Shown one piece after another: positions 3,546-45,500 of a stretch of DNA of 64,000 bases. Under the pieces are notes generated by a model. It was not told the DNA's origin, did not search any database, and worked only from the letters and a program-made list of their open reading frames with translations. A program made the translations under genes and the position numbers. Numbering within the stretch: position 1 is the stretch's first letter; every line of letters begins with the position of its first letter. Origin of the DNA: Podarcis cretensis (lineage: Eukaryota); assembly GCA_951804945.1 (NCBI GenBank), contig OX638149.1:117242001-117306000 (forward strand), written 5' to 3'.

Positions 3546-6500
3546 ATTCATTATTTATACCCTGCCCATCTGGCTGGGTTGCCCCGGCCACTCTGGGCAG
3601 CTTCCAACAAATACAAAAACACAATAAAACATCAAACACTAAAAAATTCCTGATACAACACTGCCTTCAGGTGCCTTTAATTTCAGGTTGGGGGAACTCA
3701 GGCATTAACACTCAGAAATATCCCTGTGGCTTGGGGGTATTTTGAGGTGAGTGCTTTGACAATGTGTCTTGAGGTACATATTCGACTCACAAACCCAGGG
3801 CTCACCTGACAAGGAAGGAAATTTATCCCAATCCTTGACTGGGGAGCAACAGAATGTAGACAGACACATGCCCAAGGAACAAGAGGAATGCTTTCCTCAT
3901 ATTTATGAGATAACCTCACCTCCCTGCACTTATTTAATTGACTTGTTGTTTGACAGGTCTTCTGTTTGCTATATTTCAAAGAATATAACCTGTCCACAAA
4001 TACATTGCCAGCTGAGTCTTCTTCCAGGGTGTGGAGGCAATGTGTGGATCACAAAAACAATCAAACCAGAATAGAAGTACCATATTGGCCTGAATATAAG
4101 CCTCACTTTTTGTCCCAAATTCTGACTGCGAAAAGTTAAAGTGCGGCTTAAATTTGCGACCTTACAAAAATTGGCTTTTACGATATCGCTGCTAAAGCAG
4201 ATATACGGTAAAAAGGAAAGGGTGTGAGTGCCTGTGGAATTTTAAGGGAGCAGCTTATATTCGGGTATTCTTTTTCTCTTTCCCCCTTGAATTTAAAAGG
4301 TGCGGCTTATATTCAGGCCAATACGGTACTACAAAGTTCAGAGAAACCACTGGTCTCATGACTTATGTATTCAAATGCAAAATAAAATTGTACAATATAT
4401 TCCGTGTCCCCCCCCCACTAATAAATCATGTGAAGATGTAATGATCTTAGAAATTATGTAAACTAAGCATTTGCCTACCTGTTTTATTTTTAAGGTGAAC
4501 CTGACCCTCCGAGGAAACTTGAAGTGACTGAAATCACAAAGAACAGTGCTACTTTAGGGTGGCTGCCACCGTTGCGTGACGGTGGTTCCAAAATTGATGG
4601 CTACATCATTGCATATCAAGAAGAGGGTCATGCTGAGGATCACTGGACACAGTACTCTGTTGTCAAAGATCTTCATATTGTTGTTGCTGGCCTAAAGGAG
4701 GGAAAGAAATACAAATTTAGAGTGGCTGCAAGGAATGCTGTAGGAGTAAGCCAGCCAAAACAAACCGAAGGCATCTATGAAGTTAAAGAGCAACTGAGTA
4801 AGTAGCTAACTATGACCACTTGTACAATTGAAATATATTTTAAATTCAATTATTTCGATTTTGTATCTAAATTTGGATGTCACCTCTTAAAGATATTTAA
4901 AATTAGGTCCTGTCACATAATCTGATGTCTTTAGTGACATTCCTTTTTTAATGGGTTTATTGGGGAGGGGGGGTTCCAAAACAGCAACATACAAACAAGA
5001 CATTCAAAGGGGCTTATAAAAAAACTTCACAAATAGGCTCATTGGCTCTGTGACCTTCTAGAGCAAAGTATTAGGTGTTAATTCTGGCCTGAAGAGTACT
5101 GAATGTGGGTCCCAGGCCCAGAAGGCAGTTTCTTAATAGTTCGCTTCATTTATGCAGAACCGCAGCAGCTGGGAGGAAAGAAAAGAAAGGGGCGAGCATG
5201 GGCTTCCCTGACCTTAAATGCCCCGTATTCGCCCCGCCCCCGCCACCAGCCGATTGGCTGACCGATGCATAATGCATAGTAATGATCCTGGGATTCCCTT
5301 GATCCCGTGAGGCTGCAGCCAGCCCCGCGAGAGTGTGAATGGGGCGTGAGACCGCAACCCCCCCCCCCCTCCTGATGTCGGGAGTGGCATTCCAAAACAG
5401 CAACATACAAACAAGACATTCAAAGGGGTTTATAAAAAAACTTCACAAATAGGCTCATTGGCTCTGTGACCTTCTAGAGCAAAGTATTAGGTGTTAATTC
5501 TGGCCTGAAGAGTACTGAATGTGGGTCCCAGGCCCAGAAGGCAGTTTCTTAATAGTTCGCTTCATTTATGCAGAAGTTTACCTTAAAAATTTGTGCACCT
5601 CCCCATTATAAGATGTTGTGAAGCTTTCTGCATCCGAAGAATAGGACAGCTATACAGTTAATTAAATAAAATAGCACACTGCTCAGACCTTAGAATAAAC
5701 CTACAAAAGAAGCTAGGAGGAAATGAATCAGGGATATTGTATTTCAAGGATATTAGGGGGAATACAAGTTATCGGGGCTAGTTCCTTGGTGACTATTTGA
5801 AAACAAACAGTTTTGGGTTGGTTTGGGTAGGTAATATCAGACCTTTTGCCTTACTCCTGAAGAATATAGATCAGAAGTGGCTAGTCTGTGGCCTAGCCAC
5901 ACCTCCAGACACTGTTGGACTGCAACTCTCATTTGCTGCAGCCAGCATGGCCAGTGGCTATGGGTGTTGGAAGTTGCGGTCCAGCAACATTTGGAGAGTT
6001 GCAGGCTACCCCCAGACAAGAGCATGAAAGCTGTCAAGAGACTGACATTTGTTTTCGGGGGGGAAATGCATGGTAGTTTCAAGTAAGAATGATATCAGCT
6101 AAAGATTGTGAGAACTAATTCAAAATACATACACATAAGTTATTAATTTTTGTGTGTGACCTACGTGTCTGTTTCCTATCGTTTGATTTTTAATTTCAGT
6201 GCCGCCTAAGATTCTGATGCCGGATCATGTCAATATAAAGGCTGGGCAGAAACTCAGGATTGAAGCACATGTTTATGGGAAACCCCACCCGACTTGTAAA
6301 TGGATGAAAGGAGACAAAGATGTGGCAATATCCAGCCGCCTGGCTGTGCATAAAGCAGACAGCACTTCAGTTCTCATCATTAAAGATGTCATTAGGAAAG
6401 ACAGTGATTATTACAGTCTAACAGCGGAAAACAGCTCGGGAGTAGCTACTCAGAAAATCAAAGTGGTCGTCATGGGTACATTGAATCTTCTCTTCCATGC

Positions 6501-9500
6501 TTACTTCTCAACATTCATAACATGATTCATCAATGAGCATGACCTTATTTATACCTGTATGTTTATCTCTTTCTGTAGATGTCCCTGGTCCACCACAGCC
6601 ACCGTTCGAAATTTCTGACATAGATGCTGATGCTTGCTCTTTGTCATGGCATACTCCTCTTGAAGACGGTGGTAGCAACATCACCAACTACGTGGTTGAG
6701 AAGTGTGATACCAGTCGAGGAGACTGGATAACAGTGGTAGCTTCTGTTACAAAGACGAATTGCAGAGTTGGAAAACTCACCCCTGGAGAAGAATACATGT
6801 TCCGTGTTCGTGCTGAAAACCGATTTGGAATTTCTGAACCGCTTCCGTCCGATAAGATGATTGCAAGGTTTCCATTTGGTATGTCCACCTCAGACAGTGG
6901 TGCAGTCTTTATTAGAATACTTCTAAGGGTGAATTTTTTTTAAAAAACAACTCATCTCTTTCTCTACAGATGTTCCTAGTGAACCAAAGAACGCACGTGT
7001 TACCAAGGTGAACAAGGACTGCGTTTTTGTGGCATGGGACAGGCCAGACAGCGATGGAGGCAGCCCAATAACTGGTTATCTCATTGAACGTAAAGAAAGG
7101 AACAGTTTGCTTTGGGTGAAGGCCAATGATACACTTGTGCGATCCACAGAATACCCATGTGCAAATTTAATTGAAGGCCTTGAGTACACATTTAGAATCT
7201 ATGCTCTGAATAAAGCTGGTGCAAGCAAGCCTAGCAAACCAACAGATTTTATTACAGCAAGAACACCAGTTGGTAAGCAAAACATTTGCATACATTGCAT
7301 TATGTATAACTATTATTGTTAATACTGAGCCGACTTAAGTACCGTAACATTAGGAGAATATGGCCAAAGCTAAACTTTCTTAAACTGCACTGATTTCAAC
7401 AAGTAAGGTAAGCATTTGCTTATTGAATTCCAATGGAAAGCCTTGATTTTGGCTAAATTGTGCCCAAAGTTTAATTTCTCTGGATTTAAAAAGAAAGGAA
7501 GAAATATACCATGTTTGTTCAGTGATATGCATCCTTTGTGTTGTGACATTTTCTATCAAATGCCGTAGAATAAACCTGACCTCATTTGTTTTTAGATCCC
7601 CCTGGCAAACCCGAGGTTATTGATGTCACTAAGAGTACTGTGTCTCTTGTCTGGGCAAGACCAAAACATGATGGTGGTAGCAAGATACTTGGCTACTTTG
7701 TTGAATCCTGTAAACTGCCTGGAGAAAGATGGGTACGATGCAATACCACTCCCCATCAAATACCCCTGGAAGAGTACACTGCAACTGGTCTGGAAGAAGG
7801 TGCACAGTATCAATTTAGAGCCATAGCAAAAACAGCAGTGAACATTAGCTGGCCTTCTGAACCTTCTGATCCAATAACCGTTCAGTCAGAAAATGGTAAG
7901 GAACGCATTTGAGTACCATTAGAATTGAGCCATACTTTTATCCTTCTCATGGTTATGTGCTCATTGGAATGTGTTTCCCCCCCCTCCCCTTCTACATTTT
8001 TTTTTTACACTGCAGTACCACCAAAAATAGAACTCGGTGTAGCTATGAAATCCTTGCTTGTAGTAAAAGCTGGAACCAATGTTTGTCTTGAGGCTAATGT
8101 GTTCGGCAAGCCTATGCCAACTATTAGTTGGAAGAAAGAAGGGGAGATCCTGAAACCAGTTGAAGGAGTCAAGATAACCACCAAGAGAAATTTATCTACT
8201 GTGGAGCTCTTCAGCGTAAATAGAAAGCAAACAGGAGATTATACTATCACAGCTGAAAATGCAAGTGGTTCCAAATCAGCAACTATTAAACTTAAAGTAC
8301 TAGGTAGGCTAAAAGTTCATTTGAATCAGTGTATTTAATAAACTTCAGGAAATGTAGCAGTTGGAAGACTTCACTCACCGCCTAATTTTTCTTTCCCAGA
8401 CAAGCCTGGTCCTCCAGCTTCAGTTAAGATTGTAAACATGTACACAGACCGAGCAATGCTTTCTTGGGAACCTCCTCTTGAAGATGGAGGCTCAGACATT
8501 ACTAATTACATTGTCGACAAACGGGAAACAAGCAGACCCAACTGGGCTCAAGTCACCGCCAATGTCCCCATCACTAGCTGCAGCGTTGAGAAACTAATTG
8601 AAGGACATGAGTACCAATTCCGCATTTGTGCTGAAAACAAATATGGAGTAGGTGACCCCATTTTGACTGACTCAGCAGTGGCTAAGAATCCATATGGTAA
8701 GCTTCTCTCACTGGATTTTTCTACCCATTTAGTGTCAATCTATGTTTTAACATTTGCTTAAGAACATTTCAAATTATTATTTATAGATGTGCCTGGACCA
8801 TGTGAACCACCTATAATTAGTAACATAACAAAAGATTTCATGTCGGTAAGCTGGAAAGCACCTGCTGATGATGGCGGCTCCCCTGTAACTGGATATATTG
8901 TTGAAAAACGTGAAACAAGGGCAGTTAACTGGACAAAAGTGAATAGAAAGCCTGTCATTGAAAGAACCATAAAGGCCACTGGACTCCAGGAAGGAACAGA
9001 ATATGAGTATAGGGTAACTGCACTGAATAAAGCTGGACCCGGCAAACCTAGCGGAGTATCTAAAGCAGTATATGCACGTGATCCTCAGTGTAAGTTGAAC
9101 ACATGCACATTTTTCAGTCTTCTGTGACTTTGTGAGTGTGTGCAAATGGGTTTGCCAGATCATAATTGTGTGATTTCTTGGTGCTTTCCTTCTCAGATCC
9201 TCCTGGCCCACCAGCATTCCCAAAAGTGATTGACACCACCCGTAGCTCTATAACCCTGTCTTGGACCAAACCAGCATATGATGGTGGAAGCCCTATTATT
9301 GGCTACCTTGTTGAAGTAAAACGAGCAGATACAGATAACTGGGTCCGGTGCAATTTGCCAAGGAATTTGCCAGATACCCGTTACGTTGTGACTGGACTCA
9401 CGGAGAACACAGAATACCAGTTCCGCATTTATGCTGTCAATAAGATTGGATATAGTGACCCAAGTGATGTGCCAGACAAGCACCTTGCCAAGGACATTTT

Positions 9501-36500: not shown

Positions 36501-39500
36501 CACTTAGCTGGACTAAACCAGCCTATGATGGAGGAAGTGCAATTACCAGCTATGCTATTGAAAAGAGAGAAGGGGAAGAAGAAGAATGGACTCTGGTCAG
36601 TGCAAGAGGAGAAGTGCGTACCACAGAGTATGTTGTTTCTCACCTTCAGCCAGGAATCAATTACTACTTCCGTGTAGCTGCTATAAATTATGCTGGACAA
36701 GGTGAACCCATTGAAATGACAGAAGCTGTACAAGCTAAAGACATACTTGGTATGTAAATGTATTTTTATTATTATATTTAATATTTGGTATTTTCATCTC
36801 CCCCCCCAAATACGAATTATTTTTCTTTTAACTTTATTTTATTATTATTATTTTATTTTTTGCAGAGGAGGCACAGATTGATCTAGATGTTGCTCTCAGA
36901 ACCTCCATTGTGGCTAAAGCAGGTGAAGATGTACAGATAATGATTCCATTCAAAGGAAGACCACCTCCAACTGTCACATGGAGAAAGGGTGAAAAAAATC
37001 TAGGTGTTGATGAAAGATACAGCATTCAGAACACAGAATCGTCCACACTCCTTAGTATTCCTCAAGTCACTCGCAATGACACAGGAAAATATGTCCTCAC
37101 AATTGAGAATGGAGTTGGAAAACCCAAAACCTCATTTGTGAACGTTAAAGTCCTTGACACTCCATCTGCATGCCAGAGACTTCATCTTAAACATGTTTCT
37201 CGTGGAACTGTGACATTGGTATGGGACCCACCACTCATCAATGGTGGTTCTGAAGTAACAAATTATGTCATTGACAAAAGAGATGCCACAAAGAGAGCAT
37301 GGTCCTCTGTTACAGCCAAGTGCTCTAATACATCATTTAAGATAACTGACTTATCAGAGAAGATCCCATACTTCTTCCGTGTTCTTGCAGAAAATGAAAA
37401 TGGATTGGGTGAACCATGTGAAACTTCAGAACCAGTGAAAGCAGCAGAAGTCCCTGGACCTGTACGGGATCTGGCCATGAAAGATTCAACAAAGACGTCT
37501 GTCACTTTACAGTGGAGCAAACCTGAATTTGATGGTGGTAGTATCATAACTGATTACATTATTGAGAAGAAACTGAAGGATGAACATGAATGGTCATATG
37601 CAGGGGCAAGTAAAGCATGCGAATTTGAAGTTGAAAAACTTAAGGAGCTTTCTGTTATGGAGTTCAGAGTTTCTGCAAAGAATGAAAAAGGAAGAAGTGA
37701 TTTTTCTGTAATTGGACCCATTACAGTGAAAGACTATGTAATAACACCTGAAGCAGACCTTTCTGATATACCTGGAGGACAAGTAACAGTGAGAATAGGT
37801 TATAATGTACATGTTGAAATACCATATAAGGGAAAGCCAAAGCCAACTATGAGCTGGCTGAAAGACAACATTCCTCTTAAAGAAAGTGAACAGGTTCGCT
37901 TCAAGAAAACTGAAAACAAAATAACTTTAAGCGTTAAGAATGTGAAAAAAGAAAATGGTGGCAAATATACCTTAATTCTTGATAATGGTGTTCACAGAAA
38001 GTCATTCCCAATCACAGTTATAACACTTGGTCCACCATCTAAGCCCAAGGGACCCATTAAACTAGACGAAATCAGAGCAGATAGTATGGTTCTTTCATGG
38101 GGTGTTCCTGAAGATGATGGGGGAGGAGAAATCACTGGCTACAGTGTTGAGAAGCGTGAAACCTCACAGACCAACTGGAAAATGATCTGTTCTAGTGTGT
38201 CAAGGACAACCTTCAAAGTTTCCAACCTTGTTAAAGATGCAGAGTATCAGTTCAGAGTCCGCGCAGAAAACAGATACGGAGTGAGCCCACCACTAAACTC
38301 CATTGAGGTCATAGCAAAACACCAGTTCAAACCACCAGGTTCACCAGGGAAGCCTGTTGTTTACAATGTGACAGCTGATGGAATGACCATATCTTGGGAT
38401 GCTCCAGTCTATGACGGAGGAGCAGAAATTACTGGATACCATGTTGAAAAGAAAGAACGAAATAGCATATTGTGGCAGAAAGTCAATTTGTCACCAATAT
38501 CTAATAGAGAATACAGAATTACTGGATTAATGGATGGTTTGGACTACCAGTTCCGTGTATATGCAGAAAACTCTGCTGGATTAAGCTCTGCTAGTGACCC
38601 AAGCAAATTTGCCTTGGCCGTTTCGCCAGTAGGTAAGTGACTGACTGATCACTGAATACAATGCACCTGTCTCAACACGCTGTTGGAATTTATGCTGATT
38701 AATGCACCTGTGTTTCTTTCAGATCCACCTGGCACCCCTGATTACATTGATGTGACTAGGGAGACTATTACTCTGAAATGGACAGCACCTCTGCGTGATG
38801 GAGGCAGCAAGATTGTGGGCTACAGTATTGAGAAACGTCAAGGAAGTGGTGATCGCTGGGTCAGATGCAATTTTATTGATGTCAGTGAATGCCAGTATAC
38901 AGCTACAGGGCTTAGCCCCGGCGATCGGTATGAATTCAGAATACTTGCAAGAAATGCTGTTGGAACTATCAGCCCTCCTTCTCAGTCTTCAGGCTATATC
39001 ATGACCAGAGATGAAGCCGGTAAGCCTTATTTATAAGCATGTTATGTGCAGGCTCTTCTAAAGTTTATGGGCCACAGCACTTTATTTATAGCCAATGGCT
39101 GTATTATTGAATGGCTTTGAACTCTGGTGACTATCTCACTATCTGTTAAGCAACTGATTAACACTGTCCATTCCTACTAACACTGTAAATCAGGAGTAGG
39201 CAACCTTTTCCATCCAAAGCACACAGTCCCTCATGGATAATCTTCATGGGGACACATGCTTGGTATGGAGGGCAGAGGCAAAAAAGACAGAGCAGTGGAC
39301 GTGGCTCTTACTTTTGTTCAGTAGGCTACATTCCAGACATGCAAAANNNNNNNNNNNNNNNNNNNNNNNNNNNNNNNNNNNNNNNNNNNNNNNNNNNNNN
39401 NNNNNNNNNNNNNNNNNNNNNNNNNNNNNNNNNNNNNNNNNNNNNNNNNNNNNNNNNNNNNNNNNNNNNNNNNNNNNNNNNNNNNCATATACAGATGTGT

Positions 39501-42500: not shown

Positions 42501-45500
42501 AGTGGACGTCCTGTTCCAAAGGTAACATGGAAACTTGAAGAAATGAGACTCAAGGAAACAGACAGAGTGACTATAAAGACAACAAAGGAAAGAACCACAC
42601 TGACTGTTAAGGAGAGCATGAGAGGTGACTCTGGTAAATATTATTTGACACTTGAGAACACAGCTGGCGTGAAAACTTTCACTGTCACAGTCGTTGTTAT
42701 TGGAAGACCTGGTCCAGTTACACGCCCCATAGAAGTATCATCTGTGACAGCCGAATCCTGTGTGTTGTCATGGAAGGAGCCTGAAGATGATGGTGGCACT
42801 GGTATTACAAACTATATTGTTGAAAAACGTGAATCTGGTACAACAGCATGGCAACTGGTAAATTCCAGCGTCAAACGTACACAGATCAAAGTAACTCACC
42901 TCACTAAATATATGGAATACACTTTCCGTGTAAGCTCAGAAAACAGATTTGGTGTCAGCAAGCCAATAGAATCAGTACCAATAGTGGCTGAGCATCCATT
43001 TGGTAAGTAATAATTGTTTTAACAGATGTGCATAAATTAATTCTTTTTTAAAAAAAACCAAACCAAAACCAAACAAACAGCAGTATTTAACAGTATTTCC
43101 CTTTATTTTCTTTCATCAGTCCCACCAAGCCCACCCACTAGACCCGAAGTCTATTTTGTTTCTGCCAATGCCATGTCCATTCGGTGGGAAGAACCGTATC
43201 ACGATGGCGGCAGCAAAGTTGTTGGATACTGGATTGAAAAGAAAGAACGCAACACAATCCTCTGGGTGAAGGAAAATAAATCTCCATGTATTGAATGTAA
43301 CTACAAAGTTACAGGGCTTGTGGAAGGTCTGGAGTATCAATTCAGAATATATGCATTAAACGCTGCTGGGCTGAGCAAAGCCAGTGAAGCTTCAAGGTCT
43401 GTCTTGGCCCAAAATCCTGTTGGTAAGTATAACTGGTAGAGAGAAAGTGTGTGTCCTATGATTATTTAAAGGAACAATGGAGTGATATTTTTGCATTATG
43501 TTCTCTTACAGATCCACCGGGCAGGCCAGAGGTCACAGATGTAACAAGGTCTTCAGTATCATTAACCTGGTCTCCCCCACTTTATGATGGTGGAAGCAAA
43601 ATTGTTGGCTATATTGTAGAACGCAAACCATACAATGAAGCTGGAGATGGACGCTGGCTGAAATGCAACTATACCATTGTCTCTGAAAACTCCTTTACCG
43701 TGACAGCTCTTAGTGAAGGAGAGGAATATGAATTCCGTGTTTTGGCAAAGAATGCTGCTGGTGTAATTAGCAAGGGTTCTGAATCTACTGGCCCTGTTGC
43801 CTGTAAAGATGAATACTGTAAGAGATGTTCACGTGGGTTTTAAAATTAGGTCATGAATTGTCCATATTTTAAGAGATCAAAATACACATTTATTTCTTTT
43901 GCTCTTTTTTTTCATAGCACCACCTAAAGCTGAACTGGATGCCAAATTGCAAGGAGATGTTGTAACAGTTAGGGCTGGATCTGACCTGGTTCTTGAGGCA
44001 TCGATTGGAGGAAAACCAGAACCCAAAGTATTTTGGTCTAAAGGTGACAGAGAACTGGACCCAAGCGAAAAGGTCGCTTTGCAATACACAAGCAAGCATG
44101 CTGTTGCAATCATCAAGTTCTGTGACCGAAGTGATACTGGAAAATACACGTTAACTGTTAAAAATGCCAGTGGGACAAAGCAAGTTGCTGTCCTTGTCAA
44201 AGTGCTTGGTGAGTATTTCATAACTGCTAGTTTTCTGTGGCTATTTAACTTCTTTCCTTTCAAGTTTTATTTTGAGATTAAAGAATTTCTTTCATTGCAG
44301 TAATTATCCTTTTACTCTTTGTCAATAGATTCGCCTGGTCCATGCGCTGGCAAAATCACCATAAGCAGAGTTACAGAAGAGAAGTGTACCTTGGCTTGGC
44401 GGATGCCTCAAGAAGATGGAGGGGCAGAAATTACTCATTACATTGTAGAGAGACGCGAGACAAGCAGACTGAACTGGGTTATTGTTGAACCTGAATGTCC
44501 AACACTGTCGTGTGTAGTAACCAGACTTATAAAGAATAATGAATATATATTCCGTGTAAGAGCTGTCAACAAATATGGACCAGGTGTTCCACTTGAAACA
44601 GAACCCATTATTGCTAGAAATTCATTCAGTAAGTACTTCTCTAGCCTTGTGAAGTCTTCCCCCTTTGGGGGGAGGCACAAAGTAAGTTGTGTTACACACA
44701 ATAAATGTGAAATACCTAATTTTTTCCTGCCTTTAATAAATATTTACAGCTATCCCATCACCACCTGGTGTTCCTGAATCAGTGGGTGCTGGCAAAGAGC
44801 ACGTCATTATTCAGTGGCTGAAGCCAGAGTCGGATGGGGGTAACGAGATCAGCACCTATCTTGTAGACAAACGAGAAAAGAAAAGTCTACGCTGGACCCG
44901 CGTTAACAAAGACTACATCATTTATGACACAAGACTGAAAATTACTGGTCTAATGGAAGGCAGCGAATATCAGTTCCGTGTCACTGCGGTAAATGCTGCT
45001 GGCAACAGCGAGCCTAGCGATGCTTCGCAGTACGTTTTGTGCAAAGACCCATCATGTAAGTTCATTCATTTATATTCATTAATTTTGTAGATTAAACAAT
45101 ATGAGGACTGCATAGGCCTTGAATCTAGAAGGTCCAGTGGTGCTGTTTGGACCATTCCCCACAGCTCCAAAGAGGATATACTTATTTATTTTTAAGCCAT
45201 TTTAATGCCGCCAGGATGGATGCCTTAGAATGATAGAATCATAGAACTATATAGTTGGAAGTGACCCCAAGGGTCATCTAGTCCATCAACCTGCAATGCA
45301 GGAATCTCAACTAAAGCATACATGAACGTTGGCTATCCAACCTCCGCCTAAAAACCTCCAGTAAAAGAGAGTCCACCACCTCCCAAGGGAGTCTGTTCCA
45401 CTATTGAACAGCTCTTACCATCAGAAAGTTCTTGCTGGTGTTTAGTCAGGACAAATTGTTCCAGTTGGTTTGGTTCCTAGCCTCCAGAGTAGGAGAAAAT

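What the first reader, a model, noticed from the sequence alone, without database searches (positions are those of the whole stretch)
4974..5575. Promoter-like CpG cassette inserted between 186-bp direct repeats in a titin intron
Seen: 4974-5159 and 5390-5575 differ by one base. The 230 bp between them holds 14 CpGs in an otherwise CpG-poor intron. On the minus strand the order is kappaB-like GGGAATCCC (5290-98), palindromic POU-like ATGCAT-N-ATGCAT (5265-77), NF-Y-type AGCCAATCGG (~5250-59), Sp1 GGGGCGGGGC (5231-40), then TATA-like CATTTAAG (~5213-20). This is a classical proximal-promoter layout pointing antisense to TTN. The duplication is far longer than a transposon TSD, and there are no TIRs or poly-A tail. 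Inference: a very recent templated capture (template switching or break repair) of another gene's promoter or an LTR fragment, which could start antisense transcription inside the A-band.
Basis: partly seen in the sequence, partly recalled or inferred. Interest (0 to 1): 0.7.

Follow-up and report, generated by a model that had tools for sequence, protein, structure and literature searches.

The report
One-ended Ngaro insertion in titin intron
The "promoter cassette" is the promoter-like end piece of a Ngaro jumping gene that landed in a titin intron, and the two flanking repeats are a doubled stretch of the intron itself, likely made when only one end was joined by the element's own recombinase and DNA repair finished the other.

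Summary
The 230-bp insert is the lone A repeat of a Ngaro (tyrosine-recombinase) retrotransposon family, with at least 40 relatives in the genome and full-length A1-ORFs-B1-A2-B2 parents. The 186-bp repeat is host intron DNA. It occurs at this locus only and is single, without the insert, in a related organism; three samples of organism A carry the insert. Two-ended copies share only about TT with the target (50 of 56). Of 22 one-ended copies, 7 have a target duplication of 8 bp or more (186, about 330, 66, 50, 11, about 10, 8 bp); the control gave 1 of 300. In these seven the intact end sits at the TT crossover, at either element end. Breaks cluster at A's inner boundary (9 of 12). Best reading (0.65): one-ended recombinase integration of incomplete cDNA, finished by repair. 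The POU palindrome occurs in 0 of 70 relatives. Promoter activity is untested. The scan noted a similar scar earlier in another genome (e1-9086975).

The parts
4798..6199 (+). Titin intron that hosts the insertion (GT...AG intact)
   Evidence: splice sites; downstream exon matches titin
4974..5159 (.). Target duplication, left copy (host intron DNA; begins with TT, ends with AA; C at 5013 is the derived letter)
   Evidence: single copy with T in organism B, (X5)
5158..5159 (.). 2-nt microhomology (AA) shared by host and the inner boundary of the A repeat; the repair-made junction (inferred)
   Evidence: family reads GGGAAA|CCGCAG, window reads GCAGAA|CCGCAG; blastn 5158-5389 to unit 560-786
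5160..5389 (-). Ngaro A repeat, alone and complete; element sense is the minus strand, antisense to titin
5213..5220 (-). TATA-like box (family-conserved; CTTAA[AG] in 67 of 70 copies)
   Evidence: name recalled
5231..5240 (-). GC box (core CCCGCCC in 53 of 70 copies)
   Evidence: name recalled
5250..5259 (-). CCAAT box (66 of 70 copies)
   Evidence: name recalled
5265..5277 (.). ATGCAT-N-ATGCAT palindrome, made by one A>C change at 5268; absent from 70 of 70 family copies
5290..5298 (-). kappaB-like site (40 of 70 copies)
   Evidence: name recalled
5390..5391 (.). TT crossover dinucleotide at the intact outer end of A, the same junction as in two-ended copies
5390..5575 (.). Target duplication, right copy (host intron DNA, ancestral T at 5429)
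4947..4961 (-). Two antisense poly(A) signals (AATAAA 4961-4956, ATTAAA 4952-4947) that could end an antisense transcript inside the intron
   Evidence: function inferred
6200..6475 (+). Titin Ig-domain exon downstream
   Evidence: 6202-6474 searched; PDB titin, E 3.8e-34; exon end read from the sequence

Best explanation
The insert is the lone A terminal repeat of a Ngaro retrotransposon set between two copies of 186 bp of titin intron, likely left by a one-ended integration in which the element's tyrosine recombinase joined one end and host repair joined the other. Shown: family identity, the empty ancestral site, the intact end at the family's TT, the other end at A's inner boundary with 2 nt of microhomology, and six more loci with the same scar. 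Inferred steps: (1) the donor was an incomplete, linear cDNA that spanned the B|A junction, with one arm ending at A's inner boundary; (2) the recombinase joined A's outer end to a host TT; (3) the free end primed on the host at AA, 186 nt away, so repair synthesis copied that interval a second time (joining on the other side would give a deletion instead); (4) the promoter motifs are the element's own and came along passively; the copy is most likely neutral for titin.
For: Family: (L220 and L221 have A1=A2 and B1=B2, 100% identical). Empty site: X5, one 6,863-nt contig with one copy and no insert. Two-ended solos: TT on both sides in 50 of 56, anchored duplication never above 5 bp. One-ended copies: 7 of 22 have an anchored duplication of 8 bp or more. 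A end intact: L001 186, L030 11, L008 about 10. B end intact: L185 330 (95%), L118 66 (100%), L146 50 (100%), L214 8. Swapped-flank control: 1 of 300 at 8 bp or more. All seven keep the TT and have about 1-5 nt of microhomology at the broken end (read by eye). Breaks cluster at A's inner boundary: 9 of 12 B-ascertained internally deleted copies break within about 16 nt of 225 (uniform p 1.4e-8). So do 7 of 11 joins of internal sequence to A, although no G4 motif lies within 150 nt of A1 in 7 of 7 long copies. DIRS-1 cDNA is mostly linear and single-stranded (PMC7192593, passages). Retroviral one-end integration gives the same scar: one normal end, one truncated end, a long host duplication or deletion (PMC5041404, passages).
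Against: No intermediate was observed; the mechanism rests on genomic scars. Of 22 one-ended copies, 15 have no duplication. Deletion-side repair could explain them, but so could later decay, and no empty allele was checked for them. The one-ended set was picked by hand, and breakpoints were read by eye in diverged copies. L030 lies in a host tandem repeat, so its 11 bp may be chance. The left TT of two-ended copies is partly imposed by my selection. Copies are not all independent (segmental duplicates L003/L023 and L194/L195; L149 and L174 share a B breakpoint). A G4 motif abuts the A boundary in 60 of 70 solo or canonical units, which gives a post-integration route to the same breakpoint. 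The YR and hydrolase Pfam hits lie below their curated cut-offs. The nearest relative among the 40 hits scored (of 556 candidates) is 89% identical, so no source copy was identified.
Confidence: 0.65

Rival explanations
1. A normal solo A-Z-B or full element inserted first. Later a replication fork stalled at the G-quadruplex motif beside A, and the nascent strand switched to the empty homolog or sister 186 nt back at AA, losing Z-B and doubling the host interval.
For: G4 motif directly at the Z/A boundary in 60 of 70 units, and the only one found on either strand of the L009 unit and L033 internal region. G4-linked deletions of 50-300 bp with microhomology are known in C. elegans dog-1 mutants (PMC9097270, passage). 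Solos are the commonest form.
Against: It does not explain the B-end-intact duplications (L118, L146, L185, L214), which break in internal sequence without a G4 motif. Nor does it explain the 7 of 11 internal-to-A joins at the same boundary, where A1 has no G4. It needs two events.
Confidence: 0.2
2. Host break repair alone captured a Ngaro A fragment (from cDNA, RNA or a genomic copy) as a templated insertion, without the recombinase.
For: Microhomology at both junctions (AA, TT); a long duplication is what synthesis-dependent repair makes.
Against: In 7 of 7 duplicated copies one end stops exactly at the family's TT crossover, which random capture would not give.
Confidence: 0.08
3. A LINE enzyme retrotransposed a Ngaro RNA fragment by target-primed reverse transcription, giving a variable-length target duplication.
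For: Variable duplication lengths and truncation with microhomology are TPRT features (recalled); B-end-intact copies have the TPRT polarity.
Against: This copy has its 5' end intact and its 3' end broken, the opposite polarity. There is no poly(A) or tail, and both polarities end at the same TT.
Confidence: 0.03
4. The insert is another host gene's promoter, or the whole 602 bp is a TRIM or LTR mini-element with 186-bp terminal repeats, or it is an assembly artefact.
For: Promoter-like motif order; terminal direct repeats of TRIM-like size.
Against: The insert is a repeat family. The 186 bp occurs only here (2 matches) and once in organism B. Junction contigs and about doubled depth appear in three samples.
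Confidence: 0.02

Closest known systems
Ngaro retrotransposons (order DIRS), Xenopus DIRS-53_XT type with SGNH hydrolase ORF (PMC9210276, passages)
   Same: Split direct repeats A1-ORFs-B1-A2-B2; RT, YR and a hydrolase ORF after the YR; A is about 225-233 bp here, 236 bp in DIRS-53_XT.
   Different: B is about 394 bp (152 bp there); a spacer of about 170 bp lies between A2 and B2; the window holds only A, with a 186-bp host duplication, which the passages read do not describe.
Solo AB repeats of Cafeteria Ngaro elements (PMC8547959, passages)
   Same: The 786-bp A-Z-B solo is the commonest form of this family.
   Different: The window's copy lacks B and the spacer, has one broken end and is flanked by a long duplication; solos have two intact ends and only TT.
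Aberrant one-end integrations of HIV-1 and ASLV (PMC5041404, passages)
   Same: One normal junction, one often truncated end joined by the host, and a host duplication of up to hundreds or thousands of bp, or a deletion.
   Different: Those use a DDE integrase on linear double-stranded DNA under drug or mutation. Here the enzyme is a tyrosine recombinase that is modelled to act on a closed circle, and the scars are natural germline events.
DIRS-1 of Dictyostelium (PMC7192593, passages)
   Same: YR retrotransposon flanked by a short shared oligonucleotide; its cDNA is mostly linear and single-stranded; the primer is unknown.
   Different: Inverted repeats with an internal complementary region and a methylase, not split direct repeats.

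Membership tests
Ngaro retrotransposon (parent family of the insert) | Split direct repeats A1-ORFs-B1-A2-B2 | tested here: met
   L220: A 223 bp and B 394 bp; L221: A 233 bp and B 390 bp; each pair 100% identical. The insert matches A end to end.
Ngaro retrotransposon (parent family of the insert) | Reverse transcriptase ORF | tested here: met
   L033 5361-6581: PF00078, E 2.5e-14, above cut-off
Ngaro retrotransposon (parent family of the insert) | Tyrosine recombinase instead of integrase | tested here: met
   L033 3826-4833: PF00589, E 6.8e-05, 23.1 bits against a cut-off of 27.1; HSFRIG...MGRW...Y motif visible (motif recalled). No integrase hit in 6 ORFs scanned.
Ngaro retrotransposon (parent family of the insert) | SGNH hydrolase ORF after the YR (amphibian type) | tested here: met
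   L033 3196-3771: PF13472, E 1.9e-05, 25.7 bits against a cut-off of 32.9
Ngaro retrotransposon (parent family of the insert) | RNase H and gag-like ORFs; no methyltransferase | tested here: inconclusive
   Three ORFs in the expected places gave no Pfam hit at E 0.01; no methyltransferase hit in 6 of the 9 listed ORFs scanned
Ngaro retrotransposon (parent family of the insert) | Only a 2-3 nt shared sequence at the ends, no classical target duplication | tested here: met
   50 of 56 two-ended solos are TT/TT, longest anchored match 5 bp. The window's own copy departs from this.
Ngaro retrotransposon (parent family of the insert) | RT or YR phylogeny groups with Ngaro rather than PAT or DIRS | not tested
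   No tree was built
Solo LTR of an LTR retrotransposon or ERV | 4-6 bp target duplication and a DDE integrase in the parent | tested here: not met
   Anchored duplication has a mode of 2 bp in 56 copies; the parent encodes a YR
TRIM or mini LTR element | Terminal direct repeats belong to the mobile family | tested here: not met
   The 186 bp has 2 matches in the genome, both here, and is single in organism B
Captured host promoter | Single-copy donor at a gene start | tested here: not met
   40 of 40 scored candidates match at 81-100%
Penelope-like element | GIY-YIG endonuclease; hammerhead ribozyme in the terminal repeat | tested here: not met
   No GIY-YIG hit in 6 L033 ORFs; no hammerhead among 10 weak Rfam matches at 4800-6200
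Active antisense promoter | Capped antisense RNA, open and unmethylated chromatin | not testable with these tools
   No stranded RNA, CAGE or methylation data; no RNA run was laid

The most novel reading that the evidence does not exclude
Ngaro recombinases integrate linear, incomplete cDNA directly, not only closed circles. One arm of the donor ends at a fixed stop at A's inner boundary, next to a G4 tract that is complementary to B's end. About a third of one-ended copies carry an 8-330 bp host duplication as the fossil of that step, so these genomes map the unknown priming or stop site and the integration substrate of DIRS-order elements.
Probability: 0.35. Interest if true: 0.75.

Novelty: new variant of a known kind. 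Interest (0 to 1): 0.47.

Why it matters
As a titin regulator it probably does not matter: it is a retrotransposon remnant in an intact intron. As a record of mechanism it may. How DIRS-order elements prime and what their recombinase integrates is still open (PMC7192593, passages), and they are held to make no real target duplication. One genome shows mirror-image one-ended insertions at both element ends with duplications up to 330 bp, plus a sharp break hotspot at A's inner boundary. This gives concrete predictions for a cDNA-end mapping or retrotransposition assay. It also warns annotators that long flanking repeats do not exclude a YR element. My searches of the open library listed no paper on such duplications for Ngaro or DIRS; subscription papers and supplements were not seen.

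Tried and rejected
Rfam at 4800-6200: no match at a gathering score and no hammerhead. A pattern search for further A-only junctions found only 2 known loci. Host-promoter, TRIM, solo-LTR and Penelope readings were rejected (see membership tests). A hairpin at the B|A junction (a lead from earlier scan notes) was not supported: z from +0.56 to -1.63 in 8 folds of four 61-nt junctions, and consensus -3.8 kcal/mol with 1 of 7 pairs showing a double change in 10 junctions. Imperfect inverted arms around the TT are visible, as in double-stranded YR sites. Pairing of the G tract at Z/A with B's start: own pairs -16.9 against permuted -16.2 kcal/mol, better than elsewhere in the unit in 17 of 27. 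Only 27 distinct pairs were scored (35 of 70 units failed my pattern), the pairing is low-complexity and relatedness was not controlled; it is a lead only. One search folded the wrong stretch (orientation slip), and L133 was printed in the wrong orientation; one search was used for it. One search failed. Paper search returned nothing and search 61 only general reviews. Dropped before counts: L151, L165, L179, L208 (pattern hit without family match); L218 (both ends broken); L183, L187 (nested insertions); L091, L140 (ends unclear); L206, L210 (deletions within A) and L158, L200, L202, L209 (diverged or interrupted) from the breakpoint count.

Full report
Observation. The two 186-bp copies (4974-5159, 5390-5575) differ once, at 5013, and enclose 230 bp with 14 CpG, against 9 CpG in the other 1,172 bp of the intron. 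The gene is titin and the intron 4798-6199 keeps its splice sites.

The two parts have different origins. The 186 bp occurs only here in the genome (2 matches). The insert matches 40 of 40 scored candidates out of 556, at 81-89% apart from itself. In one search I laid four runs on 5070-5480. Three samples of organism A (one study; one may be the source of the assembly) show a collapsed 186-nt contig at 1.7-2.8 times the depth of the junction contigs. Left-junction contigs are listed for all three, right-junction contigs for two; the table is cut, and each has 30 letters on the repeat side, one short of the tool's bar. A ratio near 2 fits homozygous carriers (inference). The one run of organism B has a 6,863-nt contig with a single copy and no insert. 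So the 186 bp is older intron DNA, the insert is derived, and T is ancestral at the one difference. One change in 2 x 186 sites is 0.27% per copy (95% interval 0.007-1.5%): young, but poorly dated.

What the insert is. Relatives extend into a 786-bp unit with sharp ends. L033 carries, on the strand opposite to titin's sense here, the insert-like repeat, gag-like ORFs, RT (PF00078, E 2.5e-14), a tyrosine recombinase (PF00589, E 6.8e-05, below cut-off), an SGNH-type hydrolase (PF13472, E 1.9e-05, below cut-off) and a second repeat. L220 and L221 are complete, A1-internal-B1-A2-spacer-B2, with both repeat pairs 100% identical. This is the Ngaro layout, hydrolase included, as described in PMC9210276 and PMC8547959 (passages). 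The 786-bp unit is the solo AB form. The window's insert is A alone, from its outer end to its inner boundary. The TATA-like, CCAAT, GC-box and kappaB-like motifs are family features (67, 66, 53 and 40 of 70 units). The POU-like palindrome is in 0 of 70 and rests on one A>C change. That A is the element's promoter is inferred from its position and motifs.

Why the duplication is long. I collected A ends (65 exact sites, plus the hits) and B ends (145 sites, 100 listed). For the B ends I fetched 70 stretches (the other listed sites were already held or lie in the same stretches), plus 10 loci chosen. Two-ended solos have TT on both sides in 50 of 56 and no anchored duplication above 5 bp; the left TT is partly imposed by selection, and some copies are segmental duplicates. 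Among 22 hand-classified one-ended copies (18, 4), 7 have an anchored duplication of 8 bp or more. With the A end intact: this locus 186, L030 11, L008 about 10. With the B end intact: L185 330 (95%), L118 66 (100%), L146 50 (100%), L214 8. Long lengths are from blastn; short ones were read at the junction. L062 has 7 bp and 14 copies have 4 bp or less. A swapped-flank control reached 8 bp in 1 of 300. In all seven the intact end stops at the TT and the broken end shows about 1-5 nt of microhomology. L030 lies in a host tandem repeat and is the weakest case.

Where copies break. Four of the seven A-end-intact copies (L001, L008, L030, L025) start at A's inner boundary, but these came from a search with the whole A and are biased. 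In the set found by B ends, 9 of 12 internally deleted copies rejoin A within about 16 nt of that boundary (uniform p 1.4e-8; positions read by eye, independence not assured, dropped rows listed under Tried and rejected). A G4 motif abuts this boundary in 60 of 70 solo or canonical units and could cause breaks after integration (compare PMC9097270, passage). However, 7 of 11 joins of internal sequence to A also fall there, while no G4 motif lies within 150 nt of A1 in 7 of 7 long copies, and the B-end-intact duplications break in G4-free sequence. That favours breakage during retrotransposition.

Mechanism (inferred). A donor that spans the B|A junction but is linear and incomplete is joined to a host TT by the recombinase at one end. 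The free end primes on nearby host DNA at a short microhomology: on one side of the cut this doubles the interval, on the other it deletes it. If the two arms join each other, an internally deleted two-ended copy results. This matches aberrant one-end retroviral integration (PMC5041404, passages) and the mostly linear, single-stranded cDNA of DIRS-1, whose accepted model still needs a circle and whose primer is unknown (PMC7192593, passages). I put this at 0.65, post-integration G4 template switching at 0.2, recombinase-free capture at 0.08 and LINE-type insertion at 0.03. The identification as a Ngaro A repeat with a host duplication is near certain.

Effect on titin. The promoter-like end points antisense, and a start near 5185-5190 is predicted from the TATA-like box. 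Two antisense poly(A) signals at 4961 and 4952 lie before the upstream exon. No RNA was laid, so activity is unknown. At least one private change is a CpG transition (5289), too little to infer methylation.

Novelty. The element class is known. Searches listed no paper on long target duplications at one-ended Ngaro or DIRS copies. PMC13465315 (passages) discusses short direct repeats at YR elements. No supplements were read, and the original Ngaro descriptions were seen only as cited by others. After forming this reading I found that the scan had noted a 532-bp case in another genome (e1-9086975); that is an unchecked AI note, not support. Its notes on a folded junction were not borne out by my folds. 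Verdict: a new variant of a known kind; ordinary as a promoter story, moderately interesting as a record of how these elements integrate.

Noticed in passing
window 4076-4330: 255-bp element with 36-nt terminal inverted repeats (92%) in the upstream titin intron; looks like a MITE.
   Followed up: no
window 5900-6003: Imperfect hairpin in the same intron, with weak mir-1267 and mir-5408 matches far below gathering scores; probably a repeat remnant.
   Followed up: no
L009-type unit positions 544-558 and 1-36: A G4-type tract at the spacer/A boundary, kept in 60 of 70 units, is complementary to the first 30 or so nt of B. L220 shows one paired change. Candidate priming or stop signal.
   Followed up: partly
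L183 (G000 C5, 92.09 Mb), oriented 3940-8836: A 4.9-kb insertion with 323-bp direct repeats (99.4%) nested in a Ngaro internal region; likely a young LTR element.
   Followed up: no
L003, L015, L023, L027 (G000 C13, 10.73-10.92 Mb): One solo AB copied in a four-copy segmental duplication, 98-99% identical over the 3.2 kb held.
   Followed up: no
L117-L146: Copies that end at B1 without A2-spacer-B2 outnumber those with the full 3' end among the 30 loci examined; they may be B1/B2 recombinants or direct products of the linear donor.
   Followed up: partly
L002 (G000 C13, 13.28 Mb): The closest relative found of the window's A (89%) is itself an internally deleted copy that breaks at the same A boundary; no source copy for this sub-lineage was among the hits scored.
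   Followed up: partly
L035 7372-7531 and 9408-9567: 160-bp direct repeats (99.4%) lie 0.5 and 0.8 kb to either side of the internally deleted copy L029, not touching it; unexplained.
   Followed up: no
window 8474-8546 and 44406-44478; 39347-39485: A 73-bp 82% repeat pair, and the window's only run of N.
   Followed up: no
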